This document shows, piece after piece, positions 17,076 through 56,477 of a stretch of DNA of 64,000 bases. The translations under genes and the position numbers were made by a program. Position 1 is the first letter of the stretch. Each line of letters begins with the position of its first letter. Origin of the DNA: an uncultured Phycisphaeraceae bacterium (GTDB lineage Bacteria > Planctomycetota > Phycisphaerae > UBA1845); NCBI GenBank assembly GCA_964495075.1, contig CAZBUJ010000010.1:14334-78333 (forward strand). The letters are read 5' to 3'. Under the pieces are notes generated by a model that made no database searches, was not told the origin of the DNA, and saw only the letters and a list, made by a program, of their open reading frames with translations.

Positions 17076-17087
17076 TTCAGTTCACAG

Positions 17088-31278: not shown

Positions 31279-32016
31279 CTACAGACATGCAGCATACGTT
31301 CGCACGTGAGCCGAAAGGGATCGCAAGAAGTGGAAAGGCCCCACCTCGGGGTTGGGTGTGGTGAACGTACCATTGAGCGAGCCATGTTCGGCCGGGCTCA
31401 AGATAAGACAAGCGGCATCATATAGCCGTTCACGCACGAGCCTCAGACAGAGTAGCTCATACCGCTCTGCATAAGATGAATCCTTGAACTCCGCAAACAC
31501 GGGAAAGTGAGGCTCCTTAACTCCCACTGGTTTGACGGAACCTGGGGCTTCCTCAAGAAGCATGAAATAACCGAGCCATGGCCTCGGTGAACCCTCAAAG
31601 GCTCCCTCTCGATATGCCGTCCAGAAGTCTTGAGCGTTACCAATCGCCTCTTCCGTTCGATTATTCGCGTTGTTTCCGAACGATCCAACCTGTGATTTCA
31701 ATTCAATGCAGGCAAGAATCTTGTGCTCCCCGACGACCAGCAAGTCCCACTCTTTAGTTGGACGGAAGAAACCTGGTAAATAACGAGTGTTCTTGTTGCG
31801 GTAATAGATGCTTGCTTCCGCAATACCGGCCTCTCTCGCGACTTCTGCGAATAACTCAACGAAGCCGTCAAGTTGCTTTCCCCCGGTTACCGCACCTCTC
31901 GTCCCCGCGTCCTTTACTCCCGTCTTTTCGCCCTGCCGTCGCTGTTGCGATAACCGAGCCGCCCAGAAGTACAGAACAGCCTTGGCCACTCGGCCATGGA
32001 CGTCCTCGTCGTTCAT
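31279..32016 (-). CDS. Type II restriction endonuclease, PaeR7I/XhoI family
   Basis: 245 aa. AVTGGKQLDGF, WDLLVV, IELKSQVGSFGNNANNRTEEAIG, PWLGYFMLLE and SYAERYELLCLRLVRERLY match my recollection of PaeR7I-family sequences. It overlaps the upstream methyltransferase gene by 4 nt. GC is visibly lower here. Confidence 0.8.
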   Translation of the reverse strand: MNDEDVHGRVAKAVLYFWAARLSQQRRQGEKTGVKDAGTRGAVTGGKQLDGFVELFAEVAREAGIAEASIYYRNKNTRYLPGFFRPTKEWDLLVVGEHKILACIELKSQVGSFGNNANNRTEEAIGNAQDFWTAYREGAFEGSPRPWLGYFMLLEEAPGSVKPVGVKEPHFPVFAEFKDSSYAERYELLCLRLVRERLYDAACLILSPAEHGSLNGTFTTPNPEVGPFHFLRSLSAHVRTYAACL

Positions 32017-33005
32017 CGTTCTACCTGAATGTCATACTTGCTGAACAATCCTGCCGACTCCTTCTCGACCCGCCGCTGGGCCAGCGACAGATAATCTGGG
32101 TCCACCTCGATCCCGATGCTGTTTCTTCCCGCATGCATCGCAGCGACTGTTGTCGTTCCCGTCCCAACAAACGGGTCCAGTACCGTGTCGCCCACGAAGC
32201 TGAACATTCGAATGAGGCGATCGGCCAGTGCTAACGGATAGGGGGCTGGGTGCTTGCGAGTCGACGCGCCAGTCAGGCCCATCCAGACTTGTTGGAACCA
32301 CTCCTTGTGTTCATCCGCCGCGATCACACTCATGATGCGAGTAGCCTCTGCTGGTCGTCGATAGCCGCCTGGCTTTCGTTCCATGAGAATAAACTCAATG
32401 TCATTCTTGACGACGGAGTTAGGCTCGTACGGTTTGCCAAGAAAGCCAGCCCCATTTCCTTCGGCTTCGTAGACGGCATTGGCGATTTTGTTCCAGATAA
32501 TCGGCGCGAGATTATCGAATCCGATGCGGCGGCAAGCCTCCTGAATGGAGGCATGTAGCGGCACCACGGTGTGCCGCCCGTTGTTCTTGCGACGTGCTAG
32601 GCAGACGTCTCCCACAACGCACACGAGACGCCCTCCTGGTACCAAAGCGCGAAAACACTGGCGCCAGACCTTGTTCAGTTCGCCAAGAAACCGTTCGTAA
32701 TCCTCTACGTGTCCAAGCTGATTCTCAGACGCGTTATACTCCTTGAGTGTCCAGTAGGGAGGAGATGTCACGACAAGATGAATGCTCTCCGGTTCTAAGT
32801 GCATTTGCCGCGCATCTCCCAGGCTGATGACATGGCGGGTTGGAAAACTCTGAATCGCCGCGCGGATTGCGCCAATCGCCTTGGGGTCTTTTGCGATGCG
32901 AGGGATGCCACGCTGCGAGTCCTGCAAGTCACGGAGGTGTTGGGGCACTAGCTGTGCAAGCCCGGCAGGCGTCGTTTCGAATTTTCGTACTTTCGTTTCT
33001 GGCAT
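32013..33005 (-). CDS. DNA methyltransferase (beta-class N6-adenine/N4-cytosine), cognate of the adjacent endonuclease
   Basis: 330 aa. The catalytic motif TSPPYW comes before the AdoMet motif DPFVGTGTT (order IV...I, which is beta class). Confidence 0.85.
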   Translation of the reverse strand: MPETKVRKFETTPAGLAQLVPQHLRDLQDSQRGIPRIAKDPKAIGAIRAAIQSFPTRHVISLGDARQMHLEPESIHLVVTSPPYWTLKEYNASENQLGHVEDYERFLGELNKVWRQCFRALVPGGRLVCVVGDVCLARRKNNGRHTVVPLHASIQEACRRIGFDNLAPIIWNKIANAVYEAEGNGAGFLGKPYEPNSVVKNDIEFILMERKPGGYRRPAEATRIMSVIAADEHKEWFQQVWMGLTGASTRKHPAPYPLALADRLIRMFSFVGDTVLDPFVGTGTTTVAAMHAGRNSIGIEVDPDYLSLAQRRVEKESAGLFSKYDIQVER

Positions 33006-38562: not shown

Positions 38563-38625
38563 CGCCCGCGGTGGGAACGACGGGTGGACAGGGCCGAGCC
38601 GGCACAGAATAGGGAGGACCTGGCG

Positions 38626-39645
38626 ATGGTCAGCCTGAAAGCAGGCGACCGAATCAGCAACTACCTGCTCGAGGAGCTGGTGGGGACGGGCAGCTTCGCC
38701 CAGGTGTGGAGAGCCCGCCATCATACCCTTGACAAGGTCGTCGCGATCAAAGTCCTGACCGACCAGCAGTACGTTCGGAACTTCCGGCAGGAAGGGGTGG
38801 TCGTCCACGGACTGCGGCACCCCAACATCGTGCGGGTCGAGGACATTGACGCGTACGATGATCCGCCGTATCTGATCATGGAACTTGTGGACGGGCCCTC
38901 CTTGCGGAGGGTGATCGATGCCCACCCGGACGGATTGCCCATCCCCGCGTGCCAGACGGTGTTTGGCGGGTTGTGCAAGGCCCTTTCGTTTGCCCACGAG
39001 AACGGTTTGATCCATCGGGACATCAAGCCGGCCAACATTCTGCTCAACCATCGCGAAGACGATCTGACCACGCTGACGGAGCAGGCGGTCAAGGTGGGCG
39101 ATTTCGGCCTGGGCCGCACCGGCGGCGTGACCACCGCATCCATCATGCAGTCGGGCAGCCTTCAGACGGAAGAGGGCCGAAGCATCGCCGGCACCCTCGC
39201 GTACATGTCGCCCGAGCAGAAGGAGGGCGGGGCCGTGGACGCGCGGAGTGACCTCTATGCGTGCGGCATTGTCCTGTTCGAGATGCTGACGGGCAGTCGA
39301 CCGGCCGGAGTGGAGATCCCCAGTTCCGTGCGTTCGGACGTCCCTCCGGTCCTGGACGAGGCCTTTCGTCGCTGCTACACGCGGCTGGATCGCCGTGTCG
39401 CCTCCGCCGGTGACCTGCTCGACATCGTGCGGCGTACCGGTCCGTCGGGGCCGGCGGCGGCCGGCGGGGGGCTGACGTGCCCGTCGTGCCACGGGCGCGT
39501 CGCCGGTGGAGACCAGTTCTGCACCCACTGCGGATACCAGTTGGTCGAGTCGGTGCCGCGCTGTCCGTCGTGCCACGCGTTTGTCAATCGCACTGACCGG
39601 TACTGCATTTTCTGTGGGACGCAGTTGCAGAGAACCGGCGAGTAG
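38626..39645 (+). CDS. Ser/Thr protein kinase with a C-terminal double zinc ribbon
   Basis: GTGSFAQVW, VAIKVL, HRDIKPANILL, DFGLG and TLAYMSPEQ. C-terminus CPSCHGRVAGGDQFCTHCG...CPSCHAFVNRTDRYCIFCG. The ATG at 38626 is preceded by GGGAGGA. The maximal ORF starts with GTG at 38584. Confidence 0.85.
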   Translation: MVSLKAGDRISNYLLEELVGTGSFAQVWRARHHTLDKVVAIKVLTDQQYVRNFRQEGVVVHGLRHPNIVRVEDIDAYDDPPYLIMELVDGPSLRRVIDAHPDGLPIPACQTVFGGLCKALSFAHENGLIHRDIKPANILLNHREDDLTTLTEQAVKVGDFGLGRTGGVTTASIMQSGSLQTEEGRSIAGTLAYMSPEQKEGGAVDARSDLYACGIVLFEMLTGSRPAGVEIPSSVRSDVPPVLDEAFRRCYTRLDRRVASAGDLLDIVRRTGPSGPAAAGGGLTCPSCHGRVAGGDQFCTHCGYQLVESVPRCPSCHAFVNRTDRYCIFCGTQLQRTGE

Positions 39646-39662
39646 CATCGGGATCGAGTGAG

Positions 39663-39920
39663 ATGGCGTCGTGGATCTTCATCATCTTCGCGATCGTCCT
39701 CGTGGCCGGGCTCGTGCTCACCGCGGTGCTCATGATCATGTTCATCGTTCATAGCGCCAAGCGGTCGTTGTCGGGACAATCGCCGCGCCAGCCGGCCGGC
39801 CCCGCCCGACGCGTTGGTGACCGACGGGCGAATGTTGACCGGATTTGTCCGAATGATCATTGTAGGCATCCGAACCGGTCGGATGCCCTCTATTGCGGCC
39901 AGTGCGGACGGCGGTTGTAA
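39663..39920 (+). CDS. Small single-TM protein with a C-terminal zinc ribbon
   Basis: 85 aa. TM helix WIFIIFAIVLVAGLVLTAVLMIMFIV, then CPNDHCRHPNRSDALYCGQCG. Confidence 0.5.
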   Translation: MASWIFIIFAIVLVAGLVLTAVLMIMFIVHSAKRSLSGQSPRQPAGPARRVGDRRANVDRICPNDHCRHPNRSDALYCGQCGRRL

Positions 39921-39923
39921 ACG

Positions 39924-41396
39924 TTGACCGATTCATCGAGCGGACAATCCGGCCGGCTGAACGCGGACGCGGCGGAGACCCTTCGGGTCGAGACGGAGTT
40001 TCTGTCCGGCGTGGAGGCCAACCTCGAGGCCGCCAAGGGCGGGCTGTTGCCCGGCGATCGCTGGCGTGCCGTGCGGGACGACGAGAGCGACGCCTTGCGG
40101 GCGATGATGGCCTCCCGGCGGATGTACGACCGCGAGTTGCTCAAGCAGCTCCCGCACAACCGGCGGATCGTGGTCCAGGGCTCGCAGCGTCGCTGGCTCC
40201 TGTTCCGCCGTCCGACCGAGGTGGCCATTGCCACCGTGGTGGCACCGTTTGAGCACTTGCTGACGCCCGAGTCGACCACCGCACCCCCGGTCACGCTCGG
40301 CGAGTTGACCGCCCACGTGCGCGGGCTGGTGGGCGAGGCCAAGGTGCCGCACGTTGTCGGCGTCTGTTCGCCCAGCGGATTCGCCGACGACGTGCGGGAG
40401 ACGCGCCTGGACATGCCGAACGTCACCATCGTGCTGGTCGAGCCGCGGGCGGGCGGCGGGTGGACCATCGCGACGCCCGGCGGAACCCAGGTCTCGGAGA
40501 ACATCCGAAAGCTGTACGACCCCGAGGCGATTAGCCAGAAGGTGACCCGGGCGCTGCGGGAGATCGAACACCGCCGGGTCGACCTGTTGACGGGCGGGCT
40601 GTCGGCCGCGTCGATCGCCGCGGGCACCGGGCTGCCCGAAGGAGTGGTCATGTTGGCCTTCAAGAAGGTGGCGGGCGAAGACACCGAGCTGCGCGTGACC
40701 CGCCGCTCGGGACATGTGGTGCTCTACCGCGGAGCGCCATCACGGTCGCAGGAGAGTAGTGCCATGAACGTCGTCGATCGCATCCGCGCACTGTTTTCAT
40801 CGGAAGGCGACGAAGCCCAGAAGATCAACGTGCTGGCCGAGCGACGGGCCAACCTCGCCCAACGCCGCGATCGGCTCTACGAGGACATCGGCAAGCTGGA
40901 AAAACGCGAGGCCGAGCTGCTCAATGAAGGACGGACGTCCAAATCGCAGGTCACCCGCCGGCGGCTGGCCGCCCAGCTGGGGCAGCTTCGCAAGGACATC
41001 GCGCGGCAGAACACGACCGCCAACATGCTGAATCAGCAGATCAACATCCTCAGCACCGACATCCACAACCTCACGCTGATCCAGCAAGGCCAGATGGCCA
41101 GCCTGCCCAATACCGAGGAACTGACCGAGAACGCGGTCAAAGCCGAGGAAATGCTCGAAACCCTCCGGGCCGACGCGGACATGGTCGCCGGCCTGGAAAC
41201 AGGACTGGCCGACGTGGCGACCAGCGACGAAGAACTGGCCATTCTCAAGGAGTTCGACGAGCCGGAGGCACCGAGGCAAACGGCCAGCGCCGACAGCGCG
41301 GCGGAACGCGAGGTGATGCGCGAGTTCGACCAACCGCAAGAAGAGGCGAGGCCAGAGAAGAACGCAGGGAAGCAACGGGCCGACCCGGAGGCGTGA
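39924..41396 (+). CDS. Fusion protein: unknown N-terminal domain (about 270 aa, possibly ending in a winged helix) plus a C-terminal ESCRT-III/Snf7-like helical domain
   Basis: The region from about aa 275 (MNVVDRIRALFSSEGDEAQKINVLAERRANLAQRRDRLYEDIGKLEKREAELLNEG...LRKDIARQNTTANMLNQQINILSTDIHNLTLIQQG...TENAVKAEEMLETLRADADMVAGLE) follows the Snf7 helix pattern, with a basic hairpin and then an acidic tail. The tail carries the repeated motifs LAILKEFDEPE and REVMREFDQPQ. Confidence 0.6.
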   Translation: MTDSSSGQSGRLNADAAETLRVETEFLSGVEANLEAAKGGLLPGDRWRAVRDDESDALRAMMASRRMYDRELLKQLPHNRRIVVQGSQRRWLLFRRPTEVAIATVVAPFEHLLTPESTTAPPVTLGELTAHVRGLVGEAKVPHVVGVCSPSGFADDVRETRLDMPNVTIVLVEPRAGGGWTIATPGGTQVSENIRKLYDPEAISQKVTRALREIEHRRVDLLTGGLSAASIAAGTGLPEGVVMLAFKKVAGEDTELRVTRRSGHVVLYRGAPSRSQESSAMNVVDRIRALFSSEGDEAQKINVLAERRANLAQRRDRLYEDIGKLEKREAELLNEGRTSKSQVTRRRLAAQLGQLRKDIARQNTTANMLNQQINILSTDIHNLTLIQQGQMASLPNTEELTENAVKAEEMLETLRADADMVAGLETGLADVATSDEELAILKEFDEPEAPRQTASADSAAEREVMREFDQPQEEARPEKNAGKQRADPEA

Positions 41397-41441
41397 GCGA
41401 TCCGTCCCGCAAGCCCGACGAGACACCGCGAAGGTACAACG

Positions 41442-42050
41442 ATGGACTTCTTCGACTGGCTGACCAAGCGAAAGAAACCGCTGTCCGAAATGTCGCGAGC
41501 CGAACTCCGGCGGCAGGAGCTGCTGCTGGAGAAAGACCGCACGCAACTGCTCAACAAGGTCACCAAGCTGGCCAAGGCCAAGCAGGAGCTGTTCGAACGC
41601 GGGGCCGGTGAGAAGACCCCCGAAGTCCGGCGCATCCTGGCCCAGGAGTTCGAACTGAAGACCACCGAGCAGCTCATGCTCTCCCGGCAACTCAATATCC
41701 GCAGCAAGGAGATGATGACCGTCTCCCGGCTGCGGATGCTCCGCGAGAACGCCGAGCGGGCGGCCAGTACCGGCGGCAAGCTCGGCCTGATCAACGAAAA
41801 GGACATGCTGCGCCTCGGACGCCTCATCGAGAACGACTCGATCAAGGCCGAAGCGTACCAGGAGCGTCTCGACGAGATCCTCTCGATGGGGGCGGAAGTG
41901 GACGAAGGGGCCGCCGGGCTGTCCGAGGCCGGTCAGTCCGTGCTCGACATCTGGGACAAGATGGACGCCGGCGCCATCGCGGACTCGCGGGAAGCGTTTG
42001 AGGAAGCGGATCGACGCGTCCGGGAGCAGGCCAGTCCGGCCGAGGAGTAG
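41442..42050 (+). CDS. ESCRT-III/Snf7 (PspA-superfamily)-like protein
   Basis: 202 aa. N-terminus MDFFDWLTKRKKP, a basic helical hairpin in the first half, and an acidic C-terminal half. The length and charge asymmetry are typical of ESCRT-III subunits. Confidence 0.65.
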   Translation: MDFFDWLTKRKKPLSEMSRAELRRQELLLEKDRTQLLNKVTKLAKAKQELFERGAGEKTPEVRRILAQEFELKTTEQLMLSRQLNIRSKEMMTVSRLRMLRENAERAASTGGKLGLINEKDMLRLGRLIENDSIKAEAYQERLDEILSMGAEVDEGAAGLSEAGQSVLDIWDKMDAGAIADSREAFEEADRRVREQASPAEE

Positions 42051-42056
42051 CCCATC

Positions 42057-42257
42057 ATGGCGGGATCGCAACCACTGCGTCGATCCGTCAACAACCGTGT
42101 CATCGCCGGGGTGGTGGGAGGCGTCGCCGAGCACTTCGGCCTGGACGCCACCCTGTTGAGGGTGGTCTACGTGCTGGCGAGTGTGCTGTCGGCGGCGTTC
42201 CCGGGTATGCTGGTCTACCTCATCTGCTGGTTGATCATCCCCGAGCGCGAGTATTAG
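42057..42257 (+). CDS. PspC-domain membrane protein
   Basis: 66 aa. LRRSVNNRVIAGVVGGVAEHFGLDATLLRVVYVLASVLSAAFPGMLVYLICWLIIPE is a canonical PspC domain. Confidence 0.8.
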   Translation: MAGSQPLRRSVNNRVIAGVVGGVAEHFGLDATLLRVVYVLASVLSAAFPGMLVYLICWLIIPEREY

Positions 42258-42322
42258 GCAACCAGACCGTCGTGCAGAAACCGGGGAGCCCCGGTCGTCC
42301 GCGCGAAACGCGAGCGGAACTC

Positions 42323-42922
42323 ATGGCACTATTCAAGTCAGCGGAAGAGCGGCGGATTGAACGCGACATCAAGATCCGGCAGGGCATCCGCCGGATCGAG
42401 AAGGCCATTCGCGAGCAGAACAAGTTCGCGGACGAGTTCATCAAGAACGCCCAGCGGGCCAGGAAAATGGGCGACAACGCCCAGTACAAGTTCATCCGCA
42501 ACTCGCTCAAGAAAACAGCCGCCGTCAAGCGGGCCCTCGAGCGGCAGTTGCTCTCGGTCAAAAACGCCCTGCTCATCAAGCGGCAGGCCGAGGCGTCCGC
42601 CGACTTCGCCCAGTGCATGGGCACGATGGCCACCGAGATCGGCAAGCTGTTTGGCGAGACCGACCTGCTCAAGACCCAGGCCGATTGGGAGAAGGCCATG
42701 GTCCAGTCGCAGTCGATGGAGGAACGGATGTCGATGTTCCTCGACACCATCGAGGACATCGCCGCCGAAGACACCGAGGCCGCTGAACTGGTCACCGACG
42801 AAGAGATCGACCGCATGATCGAGGCCGAACAGGAAGCCGAGCACCAGAAAGAGCTGGGAAAACTCGCGAACCTGCGAGCGGAGCTGGACTCCTTGAAAGG
42901 CGAAGGCGAGAAGCAGAAGTGA
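42323..42922 (+). CDS. ESCRT-III (Vps2/CHMP1-2-like) protein with a C-terminal amphipathic MIM-like helix
   Basis: 199 aa from the ATG at 42323 (MALFKSAEERRIERDIKIRQGIRRIEKAIREQNKF...). The order basic N-half, acidic C-half (DTIEDIAAEDTEAAELVTDEEIDRMIEAEQEAE), then terminal KLANLRAELDSLKG parallels CHMP-type subunits. The maximal ORF starts with GTG at 42272. Confidence 0.7.
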   Translation: MALFKSAEERRIERDIKIRQGIRRIEKAIREQNKFADEFIKNAQRARKMGDNAQYKFIRNSLKKTAAVKRALERQLLSVKNALLIKRQAEASADFAQCMGTMATEIGKLFGETDLLKTQADWEKAMVQSQSMEERMSMFLDTIEDIAAEDTEAAELVTDEEIDRMIEAEQEAEHQKELGKLANLRAELDSLKGEGEKQK

Positions 42923-42927
42923 GCGGT

Positions 42928-43128
42928 AATGACAAATTACAAATTACTAATTACTAATGAACATGGCGGCAGAGCGGGTATCGGCAAATGGATATACGAA
43001 TAATTGGATGCAAGGGCCGGGAAGCGAGATGTGCCGGTGTGCGCCCTCCTAATGGGCCATACACAACAATTGACAATAGCTCCGTTGCGTCGCCTCATTC
43101 GTAATTAGTAATTGGTAATTAGTAATTC
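42928..43128. repeat. AT-rich imperfect inverted repeat (about 33-bp arms, each about four tandem heptamers of AATTACN / GTAATTN) flanking a core of about 135 bp
   Basis: The left arm at 42928-42960 reads aatgacAAATTACAAATTACTAATTACTAATGA. The right arm at 43096-43128 reads TCATTCGTAATTAGTAATTGGTAATTAGTAATTc. About 29 of 33 positions are complementary by my hand alignment. The repeat ends 11 nt before the Vps4-like ATG. Confidence 0.7.
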
Positions 43129-43139
43129 ACCTGCGTCCC

Positions 43140-44258
43140 ATGACCGTGTCCTTTTCAACCTTCGAGCGTCTCAAGACCAAGGGCGTCTGCGCCTACAAGA
43201 AGGGCGAGTACAACTCGGCCAAATCGTACCTCATCGAGGCCGCCGAATGCATGGTCGAGCTGGCGGAGAAGGCGCCATCGGCCGAAGTGCGCCGTCAGCG
43301 CGAGGAGATTGCGGCCGAGCTGATCGACCTGGCTCGCGATTGCGAACGATACAAGACCTCGCCACCCCGGCGGCGGCAGGCCGCACGGGAACGCGACGAC
43401 GACAGCGGCCGCGACGCCTCCGACTGGATCCTGAAGGAGAAGCCCGACTTCGGCTTCGACCATATCGCCGGCCTCGATGACGTCAAAGAGGAAATCCGGC
43501 TCAAGATGATCTACCCGTTCAACCACCCGGAACTCGCCCGGAAGTACGGGATCGGGGTCGGCGGCGGCGTGCTCCTCTACGGGCCGCCCGGCACGGGCAA
43601 AACCATGATGGCCAAGGCCGTCGCCCACGAGGTCGAGGCGACCTTCTTCGTCATCAGCCCCGCCCAGGTGCTGAGCAAATGGGTCGGCGAGGCGGAGCAG
43701 AACATCCAGAAACTCTTCGACGCCGCCACGAGTGAGGCGAAATCAGTCATCTTCATCGACGAGATCGAGGCCCTCGTCCCGCGGCGTAAGTCGGACGGGT
43801 CGAGCGTCATGCAACGCGTGGTCCCCCAGATCCTCCAGGAGCTGGAAGGATTCGACCGGAAGGGGGACCGGGCCCTATTATTTGTCGGAGCCACCAACAA
43901 GCCGTGGATGCTGGACGAGGCCATGCTGCGGCCCGGTCGGTTCGACACGCGAATCTACCTGGGCTTGCCCGACCCGCCGGCGTTGTACCGGCTATTGGAG
44001 ATCTACTTCGGCGACCGCCCGCTGTCCGACGACGTCGACTTCAGCCGCCTGTGCGACGGGCTCGACGGCTACAGCGGCGCCGACATCAAGAACATCGCGC
44101 AACAGGCGGCGGCCATCCCGTTTATGGAATCGGTGGCCGGAGCGGAGCCGCGCCCGATCGCGATGAAGGACATCGAAAAGGTGATCGAAAGTACCCCGCC
44201 TTCGGTCAAGCAATCGGACCTCGTGCGGTTCGAGAAGTTCGACAGCACGGGTCGATGA
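43140..44258 (+). CDS. MIT-domain AAA+ ATPase, Vps4-like (meiotic-clade AAA)
   Basis: 372 aa. An N-terminal three-helix, MIT-like region (KGVCAYKKGEYNSAKSYLIEAAECMVELAEKAPSAEVRRQREEIAAELIDLARDCERYK). Walker A GPPGTGKT, Walker B IFIDEIE, second region of homology ATNKPWMLDEAMLRPGRFD. The C-terminus STPPSVKQSDLVRFEKFDSTG resembles the Vps4/katanin/spastin tail. Confidence 0.85.
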   Translation: MTVSFSTFERLKTKGVCAYKKGEYNSAKSYLIEAAECMVELAEKAPSAEVRRQREEIAAELIDLARDCERYKTSPPRRRQAARERDDDSGRDASDWILKEKPDFGFDHIAGLDDVKEEIRLKMIYPFNHPELARKYGIGVGGGVLLYGPPGTGKTMMAKAVAHEVEATFFVISPAQVLSKWVGEAEQNIQKLFDAATSEAKSVIFIDEIEALVPRRKSDGSSVMQRVVPQILQELEGFDRKGDRALLFVGATNKPWMLDEAMLRPGRFDTRIYLGLPDPPALYRLLEIYFGDRPLSDDVDFSRLCDGLDGYSGADIKNIAQQAAAIPFMESVAGAEPRPIAMKDIEKVIESTPPSVKQSDLVRFEKFDSTGR

Positions 44259-44342
44259 CCCGGGGCGACACCGCAGACGAAAGGAAGCGCTTCGGCGGCG
44301 ACCAAGGTGACCGAACGGGCGACGGCGGCCGGAGGTAAGACG

Positions 44343-46100
44343 ATGACAGCCAGGTTCGATGCCAAGCGCCTGTTCAACGACGTGGACGCCGTGGCGGCCG
44401 TGGTGCCGGCATCGGAGGTCTTCTCGCTACTGACGCGTGCGCTTGATCTTCCGCCCGCGTGGGCGGCCCTCGTCGGCGACGTCCAAGGGGGGCAGCGGTT
44501 CTTCGCGCCCGGTGAGGTCGTACCGCGCGAAAACGCCGATGAGCTGCTCCTCGTACGCGTCACGCCGATCGACCTCCGCGTCCAGGAATCCGGCCTCGTC
44601 TCCCGCGACAAGTACCAGTTCGATGCGGAAGTCCGCGTCCGGGTCGCGCTCATCGCCGATCGCGGGGAACTCAGCTCGTTTCAGAACACCGCGCTGGGCA
44701 GCAAGCGGACGGCCACCAGCGACACGTTGGCCCAACTCCTCCGTCCCGACATCCGGTCCGCCCTCATCGACGTGGTCGGCGAGTCGAACGCGGAGACACT
44801 GATCACCGATGCCGACCGCCACACCTGGTCCGACCGGCTGAACGCGGCACTCAAGCCGGTCTGTTTCCGCGCCGGCCTGGCCGTCGACGCGGCCCCGTCG
44901 GTGCGCTTCGATTCGCCGACGTTCCGGCAGGTGCGCGTGTCGCAGGAACAGACGGCCCGCCATCAGGCCGAGCACCAGGCACGCCGACAACTGGAGCAGG
45001 CCATCGAAGCGGCACAGGTCGAACACCTCGACCACCTCGAGAGCCTGCTGGCCCGGTTGAAGGACGCCGCCGACTCCTCACCGGACGTGGAACTGCCGGA
45101 GCTCATGCGTACCTTCTCGCAACGAGAGCGCGGCGAGATGTACGAGGCGCTGTTCGCGGCGGATTCGGTGCAGGCCACACGGTGGATCGTGGTGGCCACC
45201 AGCGACGGGCTTTACTGGTTCGACCCGGCATCGCCGGGCGAACCGGCCCGCGCCGTCGACGTCGTGCCGGAGGTCGGCGGGATTCGAAGCGTGCACTGTC
45301 TGCGTTCGTCCGCGAGTGATCAGCGACTGTTGCTCGGCGCCGCCCGTGGCGTGTACGAGTTCGTGCCCGAGGGCACGGATCCGGCTGCGATCTATGTCGC
45401 CGATCGGCAGCGCGAGGTCCGCGGCGGGTTCAACGCGGTCGCGCTGGCCGGCCGCCAACTCTGGGCGTCGCACTCGGAACTCGGCCTGGTCCGCTGGGAT
45501 CGCACGGCGCCGGACCGACCGGAGCCCGTTCTCGAATCGCAAACCCAAGCCGCCCGCGCGGTGCGCGGCGTGCTGTTCCACGAAGGGAAGATCTGGGTCT
45601 CGCTCGACGACCGGGTCGCGTCGCTGCCCGCCGATGCTCCCGGGTCCGAGCCCGATTGGTATACCGGCAGCGAGGCGACGATCACGGCCCTGGCCGTCAC
45701 GCCGGGCGGCGTGCTGGGCGGCACCGCGGACGGCCGGATCCTGCACTGGCGGTTCGACGAACCCCGGGCCCCGCAGACGCTGCACACCGGAAACCGGCGT
45801 TCGGTCGAGTCGATCCACGTGCTCAGCACCGGCGGCGTCGATCGCCTCTTCTTCACCGACACGTCGCTGGCCGTCCACGCCCGGGTGCGGGGCGATTCGT
45901 TTACGTGCCGTTACGAGGCGGGCGGCCAGACGTTGCGGCGGGTGGAGGTCATGCCGGACCTGATCGTGGCCACCAATGACGTGCGCGATCGCCTGGTCTG
46001 CTGGTCGCCGTCCAGACCCGACCAGCCCCGCGCGGTCATCCCCGTCGCCCGGCTGACCCACCATTCCGTACAGGATGTCTGCCTCGTGCCGACGGCGTGA
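44343..46100 (+). CDS. SPFH/Band-7-like N-domain, coiled coil, and C-terminal beta-propeller-like domain protein
   Basis: The N-domain pattern (LLLVRVTPIDLRVQ...FDAEVRVRVALI...LAQLLRPDIRSALIDVVGESNAETLIT...AGLAVDAAPSVRFDSPTF) resembles SPFH. It is followed by a Gln/Glu/Arg-rich coiled coil and about 300 aa of repetitive beta-rich sequence. An alternative GTG start lies at 44307. Confidence 0.55.
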   Translation: MTARFDAKRLFNDVDAVAAVVPASEVFSLLTRALDLPPAWAALVGDVQGGQRFFAPGEVVPRENADELLLVRVTPIDLRVQESGLVSRDKYQFDAEVRVRVALIADRGELSSFQNTALGSKRTATSDTLAQLLRPDIRSALIDVVGESNAETLITDADRHTWSDRLNAALKPVCFRAGLAVDAAPSVRFDSPTFRQVRVSQEQTARHQAEHQARRQLEQAIEAAQVEHLDHLESLLARLKDAADSSPDVELPELMRTFSQRERGEMYEALFAADSVQATRWIVVATSDGLYWFDPASPGEPARAVDVVPEVGGIRSVHCLRSSASDQRLLLGAARGVYEFVPEGTDPAAIYVADRQREVRGGFNAVALAGRQLWASHSELGLVRWDRTAPDRPEPVLESQTQAARAVRGVLFHEGKIWVSLDDRVASLPADAPGSEPDWYTGSEATITALAVTPGGVLGGTADGRILHWRFDEPRAPQTLHTGNRRSVESIHVLSTGGVDRLFFTDTSLAVHARVRGDSFTCRYEAGGQTLRRVEVMPDLIVATNDVRDRLVCWSPSRPDQPRAVIPVARLTHHSVQDVCLVPTA

Positions 46101-52672: not shown

Positions 52673-53155
52673 TCAGCCCTCGAGGGACAGGGTGCAGCCG
52701 GTGGGGGCGCCGATCGGAGTCGGACCGTCTTCTTCCGCCGAACCGGACGACGCCTGCTGGCCGGCGCGTTCCTTGTTCACCTTGTCGATCAGCATGACCC
52801 ACGTCTCGCGCTGATAGCGCAGGATCTTCAGCACATCGTCGATGTCCTGCACACTGCGATTCACGCTGGCGTCGACCATCTTGCGGTACAGAAAGGCATA
52901 GATGGCCGACATGCGATCGCAAAGCTCCCGGTTGACTTCCGGCCGCAGCCCGTTCTGCATCTCGACGATGATCGCCTGGGCACGTGACAGCCGCAGGTAC
53001 GACGTCTCATAATCCTTGACTTCAATCGCGTCGCGGGCCTGGAGGGTGAACCGGATCGCGCCGTCGTACAGCATCAGGTGGAGCTGCTCCGGCGTGGCGG
53101 TCATGACCGCGTCGCGGAGATACGCGTTGGGCGGCGGATTGGGCATGACGCCCAA
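52673..53155 (-). CDS. fliS: Flagellar export chaperone FliS
   Basis: 160 aa. TATPEQLHLMLYDGAIRFTLQA...RAQAIIVEMQNGL...LCDRMSAIYAFLYRKMVDA matches the FliS four-helix pattern. It lies downstream of fliD. Confidence 0.85.
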   Translation of the reverse strand: MGVMPNPPPNAYLRDAVMTATPEQLHLMLYDGAIRFTLQARDAIEVKDYETSYLRLSRAQAIIVEMQNGLRPEVNRELCDRMSAIYAFLYRKMVDASVNRSVQDIDDVLKILRYQRETWVMLIDKVNKERAGQQASSGSAEEDGPTPIGAPTGCTLSLEG

Positions 53156-53234
53156 TACATCGGAGTCCGAATGACGCGATATGACGTAAAAATGAGGCTC
53201 GCGTGGTGCCCGGACGGCCGGGGCGGCCCCGTCA

Positions 53235-56200
53235 TCAGGATTGTCCGAACGACAGCGAGCTCAACGCGGAAAGCGACGACTGCTGCTGGCTCAGTTGGGC
53301 CAGGGCGGTCTCCAGGGCCTGGAACTGCCGCTCGAGCAGCGCCCGCTTGCCTTCCAGCAGGGCTTTTGTTGTTTCAATCCGACTGTTCAAGTCGTCCTCG
53401 CGCTTCTGGAGGGTGGCATTCTGGCGGTCGATCAGCCCGTCGCTGGAGCGAGTGATCTCGTCCAGCATCTCCTCCAGCACCGCGCCGATCCCGTCCTCGT
53501 CGTCGGTGAACAACTGCTCCACGATCTCCGGGCGTTCGGCATAGGCGTCGCGGAACGTCTCTTCGTCGAACTCCAGCCGGGCACCGCTGGTCAGCCGGAC
53601 CCCCACGTCGAACAAGCGGTTCAGCGCGGACGGGCCGGCATCGTACGGCTGAACCACCGCGCGGCTCAGCCGGTCCTGGATCCGGCGTACCGTGGCGTCG
53701 CCGAGCAGCACGCCCCGCGTCTCCGTCTCCGGGTCGAACGCGGTGTATTCGTCAATGCGATCCTGGACGTCGTTATACGTCGAGACGAAGCTCTTCAGGT
53801 CCGCCACGATCCGCTCGAGATCCTGCGTGACCGAAATGGAGACCGGGTCGTCGGAGGTGCCGATCAGGTTGAGGGTCACCCCCTCGATCACGTCGGACAC
53901 CGAGTTGCTCGAACTCGACACCACGATCGGGTTTGGCGACGTTCCGTCACCGAGGAAAAAGACCGCGTCACGCGCCTCGACCAGCGTCTGCGTGGCGAGT
54001 CCGGTCGCCCCGGCGTCGAAGATCAGCTCGCCCCGACTGCCCGACACGTCCGAGGTCAGGGTCAGGCGGTACGGACTGGACCCCGACCCGTCATTCAGCA
54101 CGGAGGCGCTGATCCGGCCGCCCGCATCGTTGATCTTGGCGACGACGTCGTTCAACGTATCGTCGGCGTCGATGTCGATGGAAAGCTCCATCGTGCCGTC
54201 GATGAACGATTCCCCGTCCTTCGCCGCGCCCGCGATGTGCAGGTCCACCGCGGTGCCGCCGTCCTCGTCGTCGACCCGAAGCCGCTCCTCGCCGCCCGCG
54301 CTGTCCGTGAGCACGATGCCGTCGCCCTGCTCGTTGATCGACGCCACCACATGCGACGCATCGGAGAACGCGTTGATCTGGCGTATGATGTCGCCCAGGG
54401 TGGTCAGCTGCTCCGAGATGTTGATGGTGAAACCGGCCCCCTGGCTGTTGGTCAGGCGCATCTTCCCCGCCCGCACCCCCTGACCGTAATTCATGTCCTC
54501 GAGACGAGTGGCCTCCGAGATGTACTGTAGCTGCACGTTGTCACCGTCGTGCACACCGTCGGCCGTTTCACCGAGCAGACCGAGATCCGCCGCCGTCGTG
54601 CTTCCGCTCTCTTCCACCCGAATGGCCCCGGAGGTCATCCCGGTCTCGTCCACGATCGCGATGCCGTTGCCGGCGTTGTTGATCTGGGCCCGGATCCGGG
54701 CGGTGCCGGCGCTACTATTGATCCGATCCAGCACGTCCTGCACCGTCTGGGCACCCGCCAGATCCACCACCGTTTGCGCCCCCGCCCGGTCCGAGATGCG
54801 AATGCTGCCGAGTGCCACCCCGCGTCCCCCGTTGAGCGACTGGAGCAACACCGTGTTCAGCCCGGCAATCAGGTCCCGCGACTGCGCCGAGAGGCCGCTG
54901 TGCTCGCCGGCGAGCCCGAGATCGGCGGCGGTGTGGGTCAGCGTGCCATCCGGCAACTCCACGCCTTCGACCGTGATGCCGCCGCCGCCGATCGTGTTGT
55001 ACGTCAGTCGGATCCCGTTGCCGGAGAGGGAGGCGGTGACCTCTCCCTCGTTCCCCTCGGCGTAGTTGATCGCCCGAATCACGTCGCCGACGGTGGCGAT
55101 GCGGAAGATGTCGCTGCCGGTCAGCGTCTGCTTGTCGACCTCGCCGGCGATCCCGAGATCGCGGGCCGCGAACCCGCTCACGTCCTCGATCTTCAGGGCG
55201 CGCCGCTGATCCTCCGGCGTCTCGGTCGTGTCCGAGATCATCAGGTAGTTGTTGGCCCGCGTCGCCCGCACCCCGACGTCCGCTTCGTTGATGAAGGTGA
55301 TCACGTCTTGAATCGTCCGGGCCGACGACAGGTCAATCTCGGCGGACGTCCCGCTGCGATCGGTGATCCGGATGATGCCGGGCGGACGACCGGTTCCGTC
55401 ATCCATCCGCACGCCGTTGCCACTATTGAGCTGCTCCAGCCGGGTCGTGTCGTCCAGGAAATCGGACAGGGAGACCGTGAACGACGTGTCCCCGCCGCCG
55501 GCGGTGATGCGGAAGTCCCCCGTCCCGGCGCGAACGTCACGCCGGACGCCGTTGCCGTCGTTGAGCGTCGACAGCAGCGTGGCGTCGGACAGGTGCACCA
55601 CGTCGGCCCCGTCGATGCGACCCGTCTCGCTCGTCCCGAGGATGCCCAGGTCGGACGCCGTGGCCCCGCCGGCGTACTCGCCGACCGTCAGTGTGCCCCC
55701 GTCCACGTTCTCCAGCACGATGCGATCGCCGGAGACCGACGCCTTCACGTTGATCAGCGACTGCTGGTTGATCGCGTCGAGCACGTCGTCGACGGTGATG
55801 GCCGCCGAGAGATCGACGACCGCCGTCACCGCGGTGTCGTCGCTTCCGGTCGTGATCGAGACGCGTCCCCGCCGGACGCCCTCTCCGCCATTAAGGCGAT
55901 CGAGCGAAGTGGTCGGGTTGAGCTTGCCCCGCCCGATTTCCACCGTCAGCGTGCCGGCCCCCACCGGCGTGGTGTCGGCGTCGGACAGCCCGCGGGCGAT
56001 CAATTGGTGATTGCTCACCAGCGAATGGACGCGAAACTGGTACGAGCCCGGCCGGGCACTGGAGCTCGTGATCGCCGTCATGACCGACTCGTCGCTGCTC
56101 GTGCTCTTGAAGGTCTGGAAGAACTGCGACTCGCCGAACCGGGACACGATTCCCTTCAGCGACGTGAGCCGGGCGGCCAGATCGGCGAACGCCGTCCGCT

Positions 56201-56330
56201 GGATCTGCAACGCCTGGACCCGCTCTTCCATGAGCGTGACCGGGCCGGAGGACGCGTTGATGTAAGCGTCGATGATGTCCTGCGTGGGCAGGCCGGACAG
56301 AAGACCGACGGAACTCGTAATGCCGCTCAT
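53235..56330 (-). CDS. fliD: Flagellar filament cap protein FliD (HAP2), unusually long, with internal repeat modules
   Basis: FliD N-terminus (ITSSVGLLSGLPTQDIIDAYINASSGPVTLMEERVQALQIQRTAF) and a C-terminal FliD_C-like coiled region. I prefer the ATG at 56330 (MSGITSS). The maximal ORF starts with GTG at 56393. Confidence 0.85.
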   Translation of the reverse strand: MSGITSSVGLLSGLPTQDIIDAYINASSGPVTLMEERVQALQIQRTAFADLAARLTSLKGIVSRFGESQFFQTFKSTSSDESVMTAITSSSARPGSYQFRVHSLVSNHQLIARGLSDADTTPVGAGTLTVEIGRGKLNPTTSLDRLNGGEGVRRGRVSITTGSDDTAVTAVVDLSAAITVDDVLDAINQQSLINVKASVSGDRIVLENVDGGTLTVGEYAGGATASDLGILGTSETGRIDGADVVHLSDATLLSTLNDGNGVRRDVRAGTGDFRITAGGGDTSFTVSLSDFLDDTTRLEQLNSGNGVRMDDGTGRPPGIIRITDRSGTSAEIDLSSARTIQDVITFINEADVGVRATRANNYLMISDTTETPEDQRRALKIEDVSGFAARDLGIAGEVDKQTLTGSDIFRIATVGDVIRAINYAEGNEGEVTASLSGNGIRLTYNTIGGGGITVEGVELPDGTLTHTAADLGLAGEHSGLSAQSRDLIAGLNTVLLQSLNGGRGVALGSIRISDRAGAQTVVDLAGAQTVQDVLDRINSSAGTARIRAQINNAGNGIAIVDETGMTSGAIRVEESGSTTAADLGLLGETADGVHDGDNVQLQYISEATRLEDMNYGQGVRAGKMRLTNSQGAGFTINISEQLTTLGDIIRQINAFSDASHVVASINEQGDGIVLTDSAGGEERLRVDDEDGGTAVDLHIAGAAKDGESFIDGTMELSIDIDADDTLNDVVAKINDAGGRISASVLNDGSGSSPYRLTLTSDVSGSRGELIFDAGATGLATQTLVEARDAVFFLGDGTSPNPIVVSSSSNSVSDVIEGVTLNLIGTSDDPVSISVTQDLERIVADLKSFVSTYNDVQDRIDEYTAFDPETETRGVLLGDATVRRIQDRLSRAVVQPYDAGPSALNRLFDVGVRLTSGARLEFDEETFRDAYAERPEIVEQLFTDDEDGIGAVLEEMLDEITRSSDGLIDRQNATLQKREDDLNSRIETTKALLEGKRALLERQFQALETALAQLSQQQSSLSALSSLSFGQS

Positions 56331-56397
56331 GCGAATCACTCCCGACAGCCGGGCGACCGGGCGCAGACCGGGCGCGACAGGCTGAGAAACCACATGG

Positions 56398-56405
56398 TTA
56401 TCGGC
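56398..56405 (-). promoter_or_regulatory. Exact sigma-28 (FliA) -10 consensus GCCGATAA on the gene strand upstream of fliD; the -35 is weak or absent
   Basis: The plus strand reads ttatcggc at 56398-56405. The expected TAAA 15 nt upstream is not present (it reads TTAG). The placement is only compatible with the ATG at 56330 as the fliD start. Confidence 0.3.
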
Positions 56406-56477
56406 AGAAACACGGCGGTTCTAAAGGGGATTCATTCACCTTCAGAACCGCCGCGAATCGGTAGGGGAAGCTGTCGA

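What the first reader, a model, noticed from the sequence alone, without database searches (positions are those of the whole stretch)
42928..43128. AT-rich inverted arrays of GTAATTN heptamers bracketing a 135-bp core immediately upstream of the Vps4-like gene
The 217-nt spacer between the CHMP-like gene and the ATPase gene stands out in a genome of roughly 70% GC. The left arm carries about four tandem copies of (A/T)AATTAC. The right arm carries four tandem copies of GTAATT(A/G/C), in inverse orientation. About 29 of 33 positions pair if the arms fold or synapse. The core contains a TTGACA hexamer (43070-43075) oriented toward the ATPase gene but no convincing -10 element. It also contains a 29-codon ORF of doubtful significance. 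I see four possible explanations. (a) An operator array for a DNA-binding protein that loops the DNA. (b) An invertible promoter segment bounded by inverted repeats, giving phase-variable expression of the ATPase. (c) A MITE-like insertion. (d) A long-range RNA stem that uncouples ATPase translation from the upstream genes. I see no recombinase in the window, which weakens (b).
Basis: seen in the sequence. Interest (0 to 1): 0.6.

Follow-up and report, generated by a model that had tools for sequence, protein, structure and literature searches.

The report
Palindromic spacer with heptamer-repeat arms
A roughly 200-base palindromic stretch, whose two arms are short runs of a 7-base repeat, sits between two genes of a membrane-remodelling operon in a planctomycete. 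It is a young, lineage-specific example of a common kind of bacterial simple-sequence repeat, and not a dedicated switch for the ATPase gene.

Summary
Arms 42928-42960 (AATTACN units) and 43095-43127 (GTAATTN units) are 29/33 complementary around a 134-nt core, in the lowest-GC 200 nt of a 65.5% GC Phycisphaerae window.

- **A known kind.** It is an inverted pair of heptanucleotide simple-sequence repeats.
- **Variable.** A sister strain has one unit fewer in each arm.
- **Lineage-specific.** A relative with a 91%-identical ATPase has only a 32-nt spacer. Relatives at 79-80% carry (GACATTN)x3 or x7 at the right arm's position. Others carry a mini-ORF or a toxin-antitoxin pair.
- **Generic.** The layout stop codon, (AATTACN)n, core, (NGTAATT)n, start codon recurs in Chloroflexota, Acidobacteriota, Bacteroidota, Planctomycetota and high-GC phages, beside unrelated genes and with no strand bias. 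Permuted control heptamers are just as abundant.
- **Negative results.** I found no recombinase or transposase in the ORFs scanned, no inverted-core allele, no sigma-70 promoter, no terminator and no Rfam match.

Most likely (about 0.4), the operon transcript folds it into a long interrupted hairpin running from the stop codon to 5 nt before the ATPase AUG. That hairpin would gate or couple ATPase translation, or serve as a processing site. A functionless slippage product or a MITE-like insertion remains possible. An invertible promoter is very unlikely.

The parts
42323..42922 (+). Upstream gene: a 199-aa coiled-coil protein, possibly ESCRT-III/Snf7-like. Its stop codon TGA is at 42920-42922.
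   Evidence: The exact protein is on record on two other contigs. Snf7 matches only at E=0.34 over nearly the full length. There is no PDB sequence match.
42923..43134 (+). Whole predicted hairpin. It starts at the base after the stop codon and ends 5 nt before the ATPase ATG.
   Evidence: RNA MFE is -72.2 kcal/mol, z=-3.0 against shuffles. The antisense strand gives -66.6, z=-2.5. DNA parameters give -35.7, z=-2.9.
42928..42960 (+). Left arm, read in heptamer units: AATGACa AATTACa AATTACt AATTACt AATGA.
   Evidence: One unit fewer in sister strain L003.
42961..43094 (+). A 134-nt core of unknown origin, 55% GC. Its ends pair with each other (GGCGGCAGAGCGG / CCGTTGCGTCGCC).
   Evidence: It is unique. 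There is no similarity to relatives' spacers (p>=0.24), to the rest of the window or to any fetched locus. There is no viral hit and no Rfam hit at E<=1. It differs by 3 substitutions from L003.
42957..43052 (+). Small ORF inside the core, 31 codons from the ATG at 42957 or 29 from 42963. Probably not a gene.
   Evidence: The three core substitutions against L003 fall in its last 8 codons, and two are non-synonymous (C>R, A>V). No gene was called here on the public contigs.
43070..43075 (+). TTGACA hexamer, similar to a -35 element, with no acceptable -10 partner.
   Evidence: Read from the sequence. The promoter scan finds no sigma-70-type site in the spacer. A TTGACA also overlaps the first unit of the GACATT array in relatives.
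43095..43127 (+). Right arm: TCATTc GTAATTa GTAATTg GTAATTa GTAATT. It corresponds in position to the (GACATTN)n array of sister species.
   Evidence: L003 has one unit fewer and one change at a seventh base. Relatives carry (GACATTN)x3 (L124-127) or x7 (L211) in front of a similar TCACNCGGCG..CC-ATG leader. Two public contigs of the same run end and begin inside this arm.
43140..44258 (+). Vps4-like AAA+ ATPase gene. There is no Shine-Dalgarno motif in the 12 nt between the right arm and the ATG.
   Evidence: Pfam AAA 1.9e-41 and Vps4_C 4.9e-07. It is 70-82% identical across Phycisphaerae.

Best explanation
What it is (identity confidence about 0.85): a young, lineage-specific palindromic intergenic element in a Phycisphaerae (Planctomycetota) genome. 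Its two arms are inverted arrays of a heptanucleotide simple-sequence repeat, (AATTACN)n on the left and (NGTAATT)n on the right, around a unique 134-nt core. Such arrays grow and shrink by replication slippage. They are a general, previously described feature of bacterial intergenic DNA, and convergent pairs are included in that description. The element is not a conserved part of the ESCRT-III-like/Vps4-like cluster.

How it most likely works (confidence about 0.4; every step here is inferred):
1. The genes from 39924 to 46100 are co-transcribed.
2. In that transcript the arms pair into a helix of about 40 bp, rich in A-U and interrupted roughly every 7 bp.
3. The helix closes off the core and brings the upstream UGA (42920-42922) next to the Shine-Dalgarno-less ATPase AUG (43140).
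4. The helix base covers positions -6 to about -20 of the ATPase start. Initiation therefore needs the base to be melted.
5. A ribosome terminating at the adjacent UGA would melt it, which gives translational coupling across a 217-nt spacer.
6. Alternatively or additionally, the long duplex is a processing or stabilising site of the RNase III type. That would separate the upstream mRNA from the ATPase-SPFH mRNA.
7. Gain or loss of units in one arm would put the helix out of register. This would explain why both arms differ by one unit between the two strains.
For: Shown:
- The arrays and their complementarity are real.
- The hairpin is predicted from 42923 to 43134 at -72.2 kcal/mol, z=-3.0.
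- All five genes lie on the same strand with gaps of 45, 6, 65, 217 and 48 nt. No sigma-70 promoter and no intrinsic terminator is found in the spacer.
- The sister strain L003 is 0.7-1.1% diverged in the flanking genes. It has lost or gained exactly one unit in each arm.
- The sister-species array varies from x3 to x7 units.
- Other heptamer arrays start right after stop codons in other spacers of the same operon in relatives: GAATACC, GAATTGC, ACCCTGA.
- The layout stop codon, (AATTACN)n, short core, (NGTAATT)n, start codon is seen in Chloroflexia L092 and L040, Hymenobacteraceae L109, Odoribacteraceae L081, Acidobacteria L028 and L046, and repeatedly within one high-GC phage contig (L284, L216).
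- Of 18 such pairs with both flanks called, 14 lie between co-directional genes and only 1 between divergent genes. They usually begin 0-14 nt after a stop codon.

Literature:
- Heptamer SSRs are over-represented in bacteria, and Xanthomonas has 70-75 convergent heptamer pairs per genome close to the 3' ends of genes (PMC4692102).
- A heptamer SSR in the H. influenzae hmw 5'-UTR forms one arm of a long hairpin cut by RNase III (PMC12721329).
Against: - No transcript data exist, so co-transcription, folding and any effect on expression are all inferred.
- The seventh-base positions are mostly not complementary between the arms: 3 of the 4 arm mismatches, and the same pattern in L092. A stem under strong selection would be expected to fix them.
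- Across 16 analogous elements the sense strand does not fold better than the antisense strand (7 better, 7 worse, 2 equal). Arrays show no sense-strand bias and no link between orientation and position. Nothing therefore points specifically to RNA rather than DNA.
- The element is absent from the relative with a 91%-identical ATPase (32-nt spacer) and from all more distant orthologues, so the operon works without it.
- The z-score for L003 is only -1.67.
- With 3-4 units per arm, slippage should be slow. Four contigs carrying the sister array all have 3 units.
Confidence: 0.45

Rival explanations
1. Functionless by-product. Heptamer slippage arrays and an unrelated piece of spacer DNA are simply tolerated between two genes. 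Any hairpin is incidental and has no regulatory consequence.
For: - The element is absent in the relative with a 91%-identical ATPase and in all other orthologues.
- This spacer is a hot spot for unrelated content: a Zn-ribbon mini-ORF, MNT/HEPN pairs and REP-like palindromes.
- Heptamer arrays of arbitrary AT-rich units are just as abundant.
- There is no strand bias.
- Seventh-base positions are unpaired between the arms.
- Flanking genes elsewhere are unrelated housekeeping genes.
Against: - Both arms changed by one unit in the same direction between two strains only about 1% apart.
- The arms are closely matched in length in many independent elements: 4/4, 6/6, 4/4, 3/3.
- Pairs of the AATTAC...GTAATT order outnumber the reverse order 15 to 6.
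- A duplex of about 40 bp ending 5 nt from a Shine-Dalgarno-less start codon can hardly be neutral for translation.
Confidence: 0.25
2. MITE-like non-autonomous mobile element. The roughly 200-bp unit, with 33-bp terminal inverted repeats made of heptamer units and a 134-nt core, was inserted as one piece into a formerly short spacer.
For: - There is presence/absence polymorphism. The spacer is 217 or 203 nt in two strains but 32 nt in the relative with a 91%-identical ATPase.
- The core has no homology to relatives' spacers. Its GC (55%) and the arms' GC (about 20%) are below the genome's 65.5%.
- The size and the inverted repeats fit a MITE.
Against: - No target-site duplication flanks the arms (TGAGCGGT | ... 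| CACCTGCG).
- There is no second copy of the core or arrays in the 64-kb window or in any fetched locus.
- No transposase was found in the ORFs scanned or next to analogous elements.
- The right arm sits where sister species already have a heptamer array followed by a similar leader. This points to growth in place.
- Relatives have other heptamer arrays in other spacers of the operon.
Confidence: 0.15
3. DNA-level protein-binding arrays, acting as an operator or as nucleoid-protein sites. A protein recognises the GTAATT hexamer on both arms and loops or silences the DNA upstream of the ATPase gene.
For: - Within the arrays the hexamer is kept while the seventh base varies.
- The arrangement is symmetric and independent of strand.
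- AT-rich islands in GC-rich genomes are typical targets of nucleoid-associated silencers. This rests on general knowledge and was not tested here.
Against: - No regulator gene is adjacent.
- The element is not conserved at the locus.
- The same arrays flank unrelated genes in many phyla and phages.
- Control heptamers are equally common.
- The apparent constancy of the hexamer in the scan hits is partly an ascertainment effect of the search pattern.
Confidence: 0.07
4. Promoter region. The TTGACA in the core together with the easily melted AT-rich right arm drives a separate ATPase-SPFH transcript. The number of units would set the promoter geometry, as in classical SSR promoter tuning.
For: - TTGACA is at 43070-43075.
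- Sister species have TTGACA fused to the first GACATT unit, after a hairpin and a T-run.
- The region has the lowest GC of the window.
Against: - No -10 element lies at 16-19 nt, and the scan finds no promoter.
- In the sister species the distance from TTGACA to the ATG changes by 28 nt (x3 against x7 units) without any visible -10.
- Only 1 of 18 analogous elements lies between divergent genes.
Confidence: 0.06
5. Invertible promoter segment (phase variation by site-specific inversion between the arms).
For: Inverted repeats flank a 134-nt segment that contains a -35-like hexamer pointing at the ATPase gene.
Against: - No recombinase is found among the 49 ORFs scanned.
- Three assemblies from two samples (the window, L002 and L003) have the same core orientation.
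- There is no complete promoter in the core.
- Analogous elements have cores of 12-30 nt, too short to carry a promoter.
- The arms are imperfect and mismatch every 7 bp.
Confidence: 0.02

Closest known systems
Long heptanucleotide simple-sequence repeats of bacteria (Mrazek et al. 2007, as summarised in PMC4679880 and PMC4692102; STRR repeats of cyanobacteria)
   Same: Tandem 7-nt units of about 3-6 copies. They are intergenic, vary in unit number between related strains and species, and are attributed to polymerase slippage.
   Different: The unit is AT-rich (GTAATTN), in a 65% GC planctomycete. Only one such site was seen in 64 kb, whereas classic cases have hundreds per genome.
Convergent GGGAATC heptamer pairs of Xanthomonas (Rehm et al. 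2015, PMC4692102)
   Same: Two short arrays of the same heptamer, most often about 4 units, on opposite strands close together. They are intergenic, lie nearer the 3' end of the upstream ORF, and differ in length between close relatives. A stem-loop or cruciform potential has been noted for them.
   Different: The Xanthomonas units are G-rich and can form G-quadruplexes. Here the units are AT-rich and the core between the arrays is long (134 nt).
hmw1A 5'-UTR heptamer repeat hairpin of Haemophilus influenzae (Rapun-Araiz et al. 2025, PMC12721329)
   Same: A 7-nt SSR just upstream of a start codon forms an arm of a long RNA hairpin that controls expression after transcription.
   Different: In hmw only one arm is the SSR, there are at least 11 units, phase variation is frequent, and both RNase III cleavage and the promoter have been shown. 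Here both arms are SSRs of about 4 units and nothing has been tested.
TAACTGA direct repeats upstream of start codons in Beggiatoaceae, Cyanobacteria and Bacteroidetes (MacGregor 2015, PMC4679880)
   Same: Short heptamer arrays a few nucleotides upstream of Shine-Dalgarno-less start codons. They are scattered across phyla and beside unrelated genes, and a role in translation has been proposed.
   Different: Those are mostly single direct arrays in the forward orientation. Here there is an inverted pair, and GTAATT arrays as a class show no strand bias.
REP/BIME intercistronic palindromes and MITEs
   Same: A palindromic repeat element of about 200 bp between co-directional genes, with presence/absence polymorphism.
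   Different: No multi-copy evidence, no target-site duplication, no associated transposase, and arms made of tandem repeats.
Invertible promoters (fimS of E. coli, Bacteroides invertons)
   Same: Inverted repeats flank a segment of 100-300 bp upstream of a gene.
   Different: No recombinase, no second orientation and no promoter inside. The arms are imperfect SSR arrays.

Membership tests
Heptanucleotide simple-sequence repeat (LSSR/STRR type) | Head-to-tail copies of a 7-nt unit, at least 3 copies, more than chance | tested here: met
   TRF finds period 7 with 4.4 copies in each arm. There are 6 pattern matches against 0.02 expected.
Heptanucleotide simple-sequence repeat (LSSR/STRR type) | Intergenic location | tested here: met
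   The arrays lie in the 217-nt spacer between the 199-aa gene and the ATPase gene.
Heptanucleotide simple-sequence repeat (LSSR/STRR type) | Unit-number polymorphism between related strains or species | tested here: met
   Window against L003 differs by one unit in each arm. The sister array has x3 (L124-127) against x7 (L211) units.
Heptanucleotide simple-sequence repeat (LSSR/STRR type) | Many arrays dispersed over the genome | tested here: inconclusive
   There is no other AT-rich heptamer array in the 64-kb window. The rest of the genome was not available. Relatives have other heptamer arrays in neighbouring spacers.
Convergent heptamer-array pairs (Xanthomonas type) | Two arrays of the same unit on opposite strands in close proximity, intergenic | tested here: met
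   The arms are 134 nt apart and 88% complementary.
Convergent heptamer-array pairs (Xanthomonas type) | G-rich unit able to form a G-quadruplex | tested here: not met
   The units are GTAATTN/AATTACN and the arms are 18-21% GC.
MITE | Terminal inverted repeats | tested here: met
   33-nt arms, 29/33 complementary.
MITE | Target-site duplication flanking the repeats | tested here: not met
   The flanks GTGAGCGGT and CACCTGCGT share no direct repeat.
MITE | Multiple copies in the genome | tested here: inconclusive
   There is no second copy of the core in the window, in about 600 fetched loci or in viral contigs. The whole genome could not be searched.
MITE | Absent from orthologous sites of relatives | tested here: met
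   The spacer is 32 nt in the relative with a 91%-identical ATPase. The 79-82% relatives have different content.
Invertible promoter (inverton) | Site-specific recombinase encoded nearby | tested here: not met
   Pfam scans of 49 ORFs of the window found no recombinase, integrase or transposase.
Invertible promoter (inverton) | Both orientations of the segment observed | tested here: not met
   The window, L002 and L003 all have the same orientation. Raw reads were not available.
Invertible promoter (inverton) | Functional promoter inside the segment | tested here: not met
   There is only a TTGACA, and the scan finds no -35/-10 pair. Non-sigma-70 promoters are not covered by the scan.
SSR-dependent 5'-UTR hairpin (hmw type) | The repeat tract forms an arm of a long hairpin next to the start codon | tested here: met
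   In silico only: the predicted stem runs 42923-43134 and the ATG is at 43140.
SSR-dependent 5'-UTR hairpin (hmw type) | The repeat tract is transcribed and cleaved by RNase III, and expression depends on unit number | not testable with these tools
   No transcriptome or biochemical data.
SSR-dependent 5'-UTR hairpin (hmw type) | Long tract (at least 11 units) with frequent phase variation | tested here: not met
   There are 3-5 units per arm. Four contigs from different samples carrying the sister array all have 3 units.
Described RNA family (Rfam 15) | Match to a covariance model | tested here: not met
   No hit at gathering score in the window apart from tRNA-Arg. No hit at E<=1 in 42850-43200.
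Intrinsic terminator | GC-rich stem followed by a T-run | tested here: not met
   There is no + strand terminator in 41300-44400. The right arm is followed by CACCTGCG.

The most novel reading that the evidence does not exclude
Hairpins with SSR arms may be an evolvable 'zipper' for operons. The two arrays would co-evolve in unit number, which is compensatory change at the level of whole repeat units. That would keep a helix bridging a stop codon and the next start codon, so that translational coupling or mRNA processing can be tuned by slippage. On this reading, heptamer palindromes with an AATT core form a coherent element class carried by phages and shared across Planctomycetota, Chloroflexota, Acidobacteriota, Bacteroidota and Cyanobacteria, rather than arising independently as slippage products.
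Probability: 0.1. Interest if true: 0.6.

Novelty: new member of a known kind. Interest (0 to 1): 0.3.

Why it matters
For this locus the result is mainly a correction. The striking AT-rich inverted arrays are not a conserved control element of the bacterial ESCRT-III-like/Vps4-like cluster. Close relatives lack them, so they should not be used to infer how that cluster is regulated.

More generally, the finding adds a planctomycete case and several phage cases to a little-studied phenomenon: heptamer repeat arrays that fill the space between a stop codon and the next start codon. It also gives one concrete, testable example in which both arms of a repeat-built hairpin changed together. If such hairpins really gate translation of Shine-Dalgarno-less genes, they would be a simple route by which operon expression ratios evolve quickly.

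Tried and rejected
1. **GTAATT arrays as a special cross-phylum motif.** The permuted controls GTTAAT and GATTAT hit the same limit. Abundance alone therefore says nothing. The only differences were more inverted pairs and more high-GC hosts for GTAATT.
2. **Strand-specific (RNA-level) signal.** Arrays show no sense-strand bias: 29 against 27 in genomes and 44 against 40 in viral contigs. There is no link between orientation and position near a stop or start codon (p=0.12 and p=0.32). There is no sense/antisense folding asymmetry across 16 elements.
3. **Constraint on the hexamer against the seventh base.** The analysis is confounded by the search pattern, and units outside the pattern are degenerate at all positions.
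4. **Homology of the core to relatives' spacers.** The MAFFT alignment looked suggestive, but local alignment scores are no better than shuffles.
5. **Metagenome scan for orthologous loci.** The degenerate patterns were generic AAA motifs and returned mostly unrelated ATPases. Only L129-L133 were orthologues, and none has heptamers.
6. **Core as a small protein gene.** The ORF has 29-31 codons, 2 of its 3 substitutions are non-synonymous, and it is not called on public contigs.
7. **Known ncRNA.** None was found.
8. **DNA of the closest 'empty-site' relative.** The sample file was too large to fetch, so only gene coordinates were obtained.
9. **Sigma-54 and ECF promoter motifs.** I looked for these by eye in the spacer and found no convincing match. 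This was my own reading, not a tool result.
Full report

Yes. The spacer between the stop codon at 42920-42922 and the ATG at 43140 is 217 nt.
- The repeat finder reports two 33-nt arms, 42928-42960 and 43095-43127, that are 88% complementary and 134 nt apart.
- Tandem Repeats Finder reports period-7 arrays of 4.4 copies in each arm.
- The two-unit pattern GTAATTNGTAATT, with up to 1 mismatch, occurs six times, all in the arms, against 0.02 expected.
- Seven of the eight GTAATT hexamers in 64 kb are in the arms.
- The region is the lowest-GC 200 nt of the window, at 44% against 65.5% overall.
- TTGACA at 43070-43075 and the small ORF are present.
- Three of the four arm mismatches fall on the variable seventh base of the units.

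**2. Context**

The genes from 39924 to 46100 are all on the + strand, with gaps of 45, 6, 65, 217 and 48 nt. In order they are:
- a 490-aa coiled-coil protein;
- a 202-aa protein;
- PspC;
- a 199-aa protein that matches Snf7 only at E=0.34;
- a clear AAA plus Vps4_C ATPase;
- an SPFH/Band-7 protein.

ATPase homologues at 70-82% identity are annotated as Phycisphaerae or Planctomycetota. The cluster is conserved in these relatives.

**3. The arms are variable simple-sequence repeats**

- A second strain (L003, a different sequencing run) is 0.7% and 1.1% diverged in the two flanking genes. Its spacer is 14 nt shorter, with one heptamer fewer in the left arm and one fewer in the right arm. It also has one change at a seventh base and three substitutions in the core.
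- Relatives with a 79-80% identical ATPase have no left arm and no core. Directly upstream of the ATG, in front of a similar leader (TCRCACGGCG..CC-ATG against TCACCTGCGTCCC-ATG), they carry (GACATTN)x3 in four contigs (L124-127) or x7 in L211.
- The right arm is therefore the local version of an older, variable heptamer array.
- In those relatives other spacers of the same operon also hold heptamer arrays that begin just after a stop codon: GAATACC, GAATTGC and ACCCTGA.

**4. The element is not conserved**

- The cluster member P0121 is 91% identical to the window's ATPase. On its contig only 32 nt separate the 199-aa gene from the ATPase gene (gene coordinates only, no DNA).
- An 82% relative has a 196-nt spacer with a Zn-ribbon-like mini-ORF and a GC-rich palindrome.
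- Relatives at 73-81% identity have a nucleotidyltransferase/HEPN pair inserted there.
- More distant orthologues have unrelated upstream sequence.
- The 134-nt core has no similarity to any of these spacers (p>=0.24 against shuffles), to the rest of the window or to any fetched locus. It is absent from viral contigs and matches no Rfam family.

**5. The same architecture elsewhere**

- Besides many cyanobacteria, the hits include Chloroflexia, Acidobacteria, Bacteroidota, Ignavibacteria and Planctomycetota.
- Many show the window's layout: stop codon, (AATTACN)n, a core of 12-119 nt, (NGTAATT)n, start codon. Examples are L092, L109, L081, L040, L028 and L046, plus several copies in one 58-60% GC phage contig (L284, L216).
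- The flanking genes are unrelated housekeeping or phage genes, and none is a transposase.
- Of 18 pairs with both neighbours called, 14 are between co-directional genes, 3 between convergent genes and 1 between divergent genes. The element usually begins 0-14 nt after a stop codon.
- AATTAC-first pairs outnumber GTAATT-first pairs 15 to 6.

**6. Controls that limit the claim**

Heptamer arrays are generic, and GTAATT is not a privileged motif. It only shows more inverted pairs and more high-GC hosts.
- There is no sense-strand bias, no relation between orientation and position, and no sense-over-antisense folding advantage.
- A test of hexamer constraint was confounded by the search pattern.

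This matches the literature:
- Heptamer SSRs are over-represented in bacteria and are attributed to polymerase slippage (Mrazek 2007, as cited in PMC4679880 and PMC4692102).
- Xanthomonas has 70-75 convergent heptamer pairs per genome near the 3' ends of ORFs (PMC4692102).
- TAACTGA arrays sit just upstream of start codons in Beggiatoaceae, Cyanobacteria and Bacteroidetes (PMC4679880).
- No paper in the held library contains GTAATT-array strings.

**7.

- *(b) Invertible promoter.* No recombinase, integrase or transposase was found in 49 ORFs of the window. The core has the same orientation in three assemblies from two samples (the window, L002 and L003). No sigma-70 promoter lies in the core. 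Analogous elements have cores too short for a promoter. This reading is very unlikely.
- *(c) MITE.* Absence from orthologous sites and the foreign-looking core support it. Against it, there is no target-site duplication and no second copy in the data available, and the right arm has a local precursor. It is possible but unproven.
- *(a) Operator.* There is no positive evidence.
- *(d) RNA stem.* This is the best functional reading. The spacer folds from 42923 to 43134 at -72.2 kcal/mol, z=-3.0, with no terminator or promoter signal in it.

**8. Proposed mechanism (inferred)**

In the polycistronic RNA the arms would form an A-U-rich helix of about 40 bp, interrupted roughly every 7 bp. Its base abuts the upstream UGA and ends 5 nt before the Shine-Dalgarno-less AUG. 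The helix would cover the upstream half of the ribosome-binding region. A ribosome terminating at the UGA would necessarily open the outer 10-12 bp and free exactly that region, which gives translational coupling across the long spacer. A duplex of this length is also a plausible RNase III-type processing site, as shown for the hmw heptamer-repeat hairpin (PMC12721329). The matched one-unit change in both arms between two strains is what would be expected if the helix register matters. It is a single observation, however.

Several points count against a selected RNA structure:
- the unpaired seventh bases;
- the lack of any strand-specific signal across the class;
- the weaker fold of the L003 allele (z=-1.67);
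- the absence of the element from close relatives.

**9. Verdict**

The finding is real but ordinary in kind. It is a young, lineage-specific palindromic element whose arms are inverted heptamer simple-sequence repeats. It is a new member of a known class, not a conserved regulator of the Vps4-like gene. I put about 0.85 on that identity and about 0.4 on the intercistronic-hairpin mechanism. The alternatives are a functionless by-product (0.25), a MITE-like insertion (0.15), DNA-level protein binding (0.07), a promoter (0.06) and an invertible switch (0.02).

Noticed in passing
window 43098-43120; L001 1-30; L002 6782-6804: Two public (Logan) contigs from the same sequencing run, SRR14802572, end and begin inside the right arm and overlap by only 23 nt. 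The arm contains no repeated 31-mer. The break could reflect mixed unit numbers in the sample or low coverage of AT-rich DNA.
   Followed up: partly
window 31279-33005 (- strand): A low-GC island encodes an XhoI-family restriction endonuclease (Pfam E=5e-79) and an N6/N4 DNA methyltransferase. This is probably an acquired type II restriction-modification system.
   Followed up: partly
window 38584-46100; L124-L128, L210, L211: A conserved Phycisphaerae gene cluster, in this order: Ser/Thr kinase with a zinc ribbon, a 490-aa coiled-coil protein, two proteins of about 200 aa (one weakly Snf7-like at E=0.34), PspC, a Vps4-like AAA ATPase and a roughly 590-aa SPFH/Band-7 protein. The ESCRT-III assignment of the small proteins is not established by sequence.
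   Followed up: partly
L128 2582-3568; L213/L214 609-1293; L215 717-1408: In several relatives a nucleotidyltransferase (NTP_transf_2) plus HEPN pair, resembling a toxin-antitoxin module, is inserted directly upstream of the ATPase gene. It occupies the same spot as the window's element, so this junction is an insertion hot spot.
   Followed up: no
L215 1440-1500; L210 1135-1160; L128 3935-3955; L212 2620-3015: GC-rich REP-like palindromes of the form GGTGGGCAnTGCCCACC recur next to the ATPase gene in relatives. L212 has three tandem copies of a roughly 128-nt unit containing such hairpins between the ATPase and SPFH genes.
   Followed up: no
L210 985-1135: The equivalent spacer of the 82% relative contains a possible small ORF with two CxxC pairs (...CADCGDTVSFPFAERGPVPGCPHCGNHVDVPDEKGA*), resembling a zinc ribbon.
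   Followed up: no
L125 5124-5154; L211 2016-2042; L128 802-849: Other heptamer arrays (GAATACC x4, GAATTGC x4, ACCCTGA x7) begin 3-5 nt after stop codons in other spacers of the same operon in relatives. Several units have the form GAATnnC.
   Followed up: partly
L284 1828-1847, 5825-5884, 9607-9665; L216 338-400; L321 2993-3060; L270 and L290: High-GC viral contigs (58-65% GC) carry several copies of (AATTACG)n arrays or AATTACG/CGTAATT hairpins placed immediately after stop codons and in front of the next gene's ribosome-binding site. Within one contig the loop and the downstream leader are also conserved.
   Followed up: partly
window 17050-17200: This is the second-lowest-GC stretch of the window (about 45%). 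It is an AT-rich intergenic region with no repeats and looks like an ordinary promoter region.
   Followed up: no
window 52673-59744 (- strand): Two adjacent flagellin genes (472 and 493 aa) and fliS lie in this planctomycete window. The window also holds alternative complex III (ActD) and NrfD-like genes at its start.
   Followed up: no
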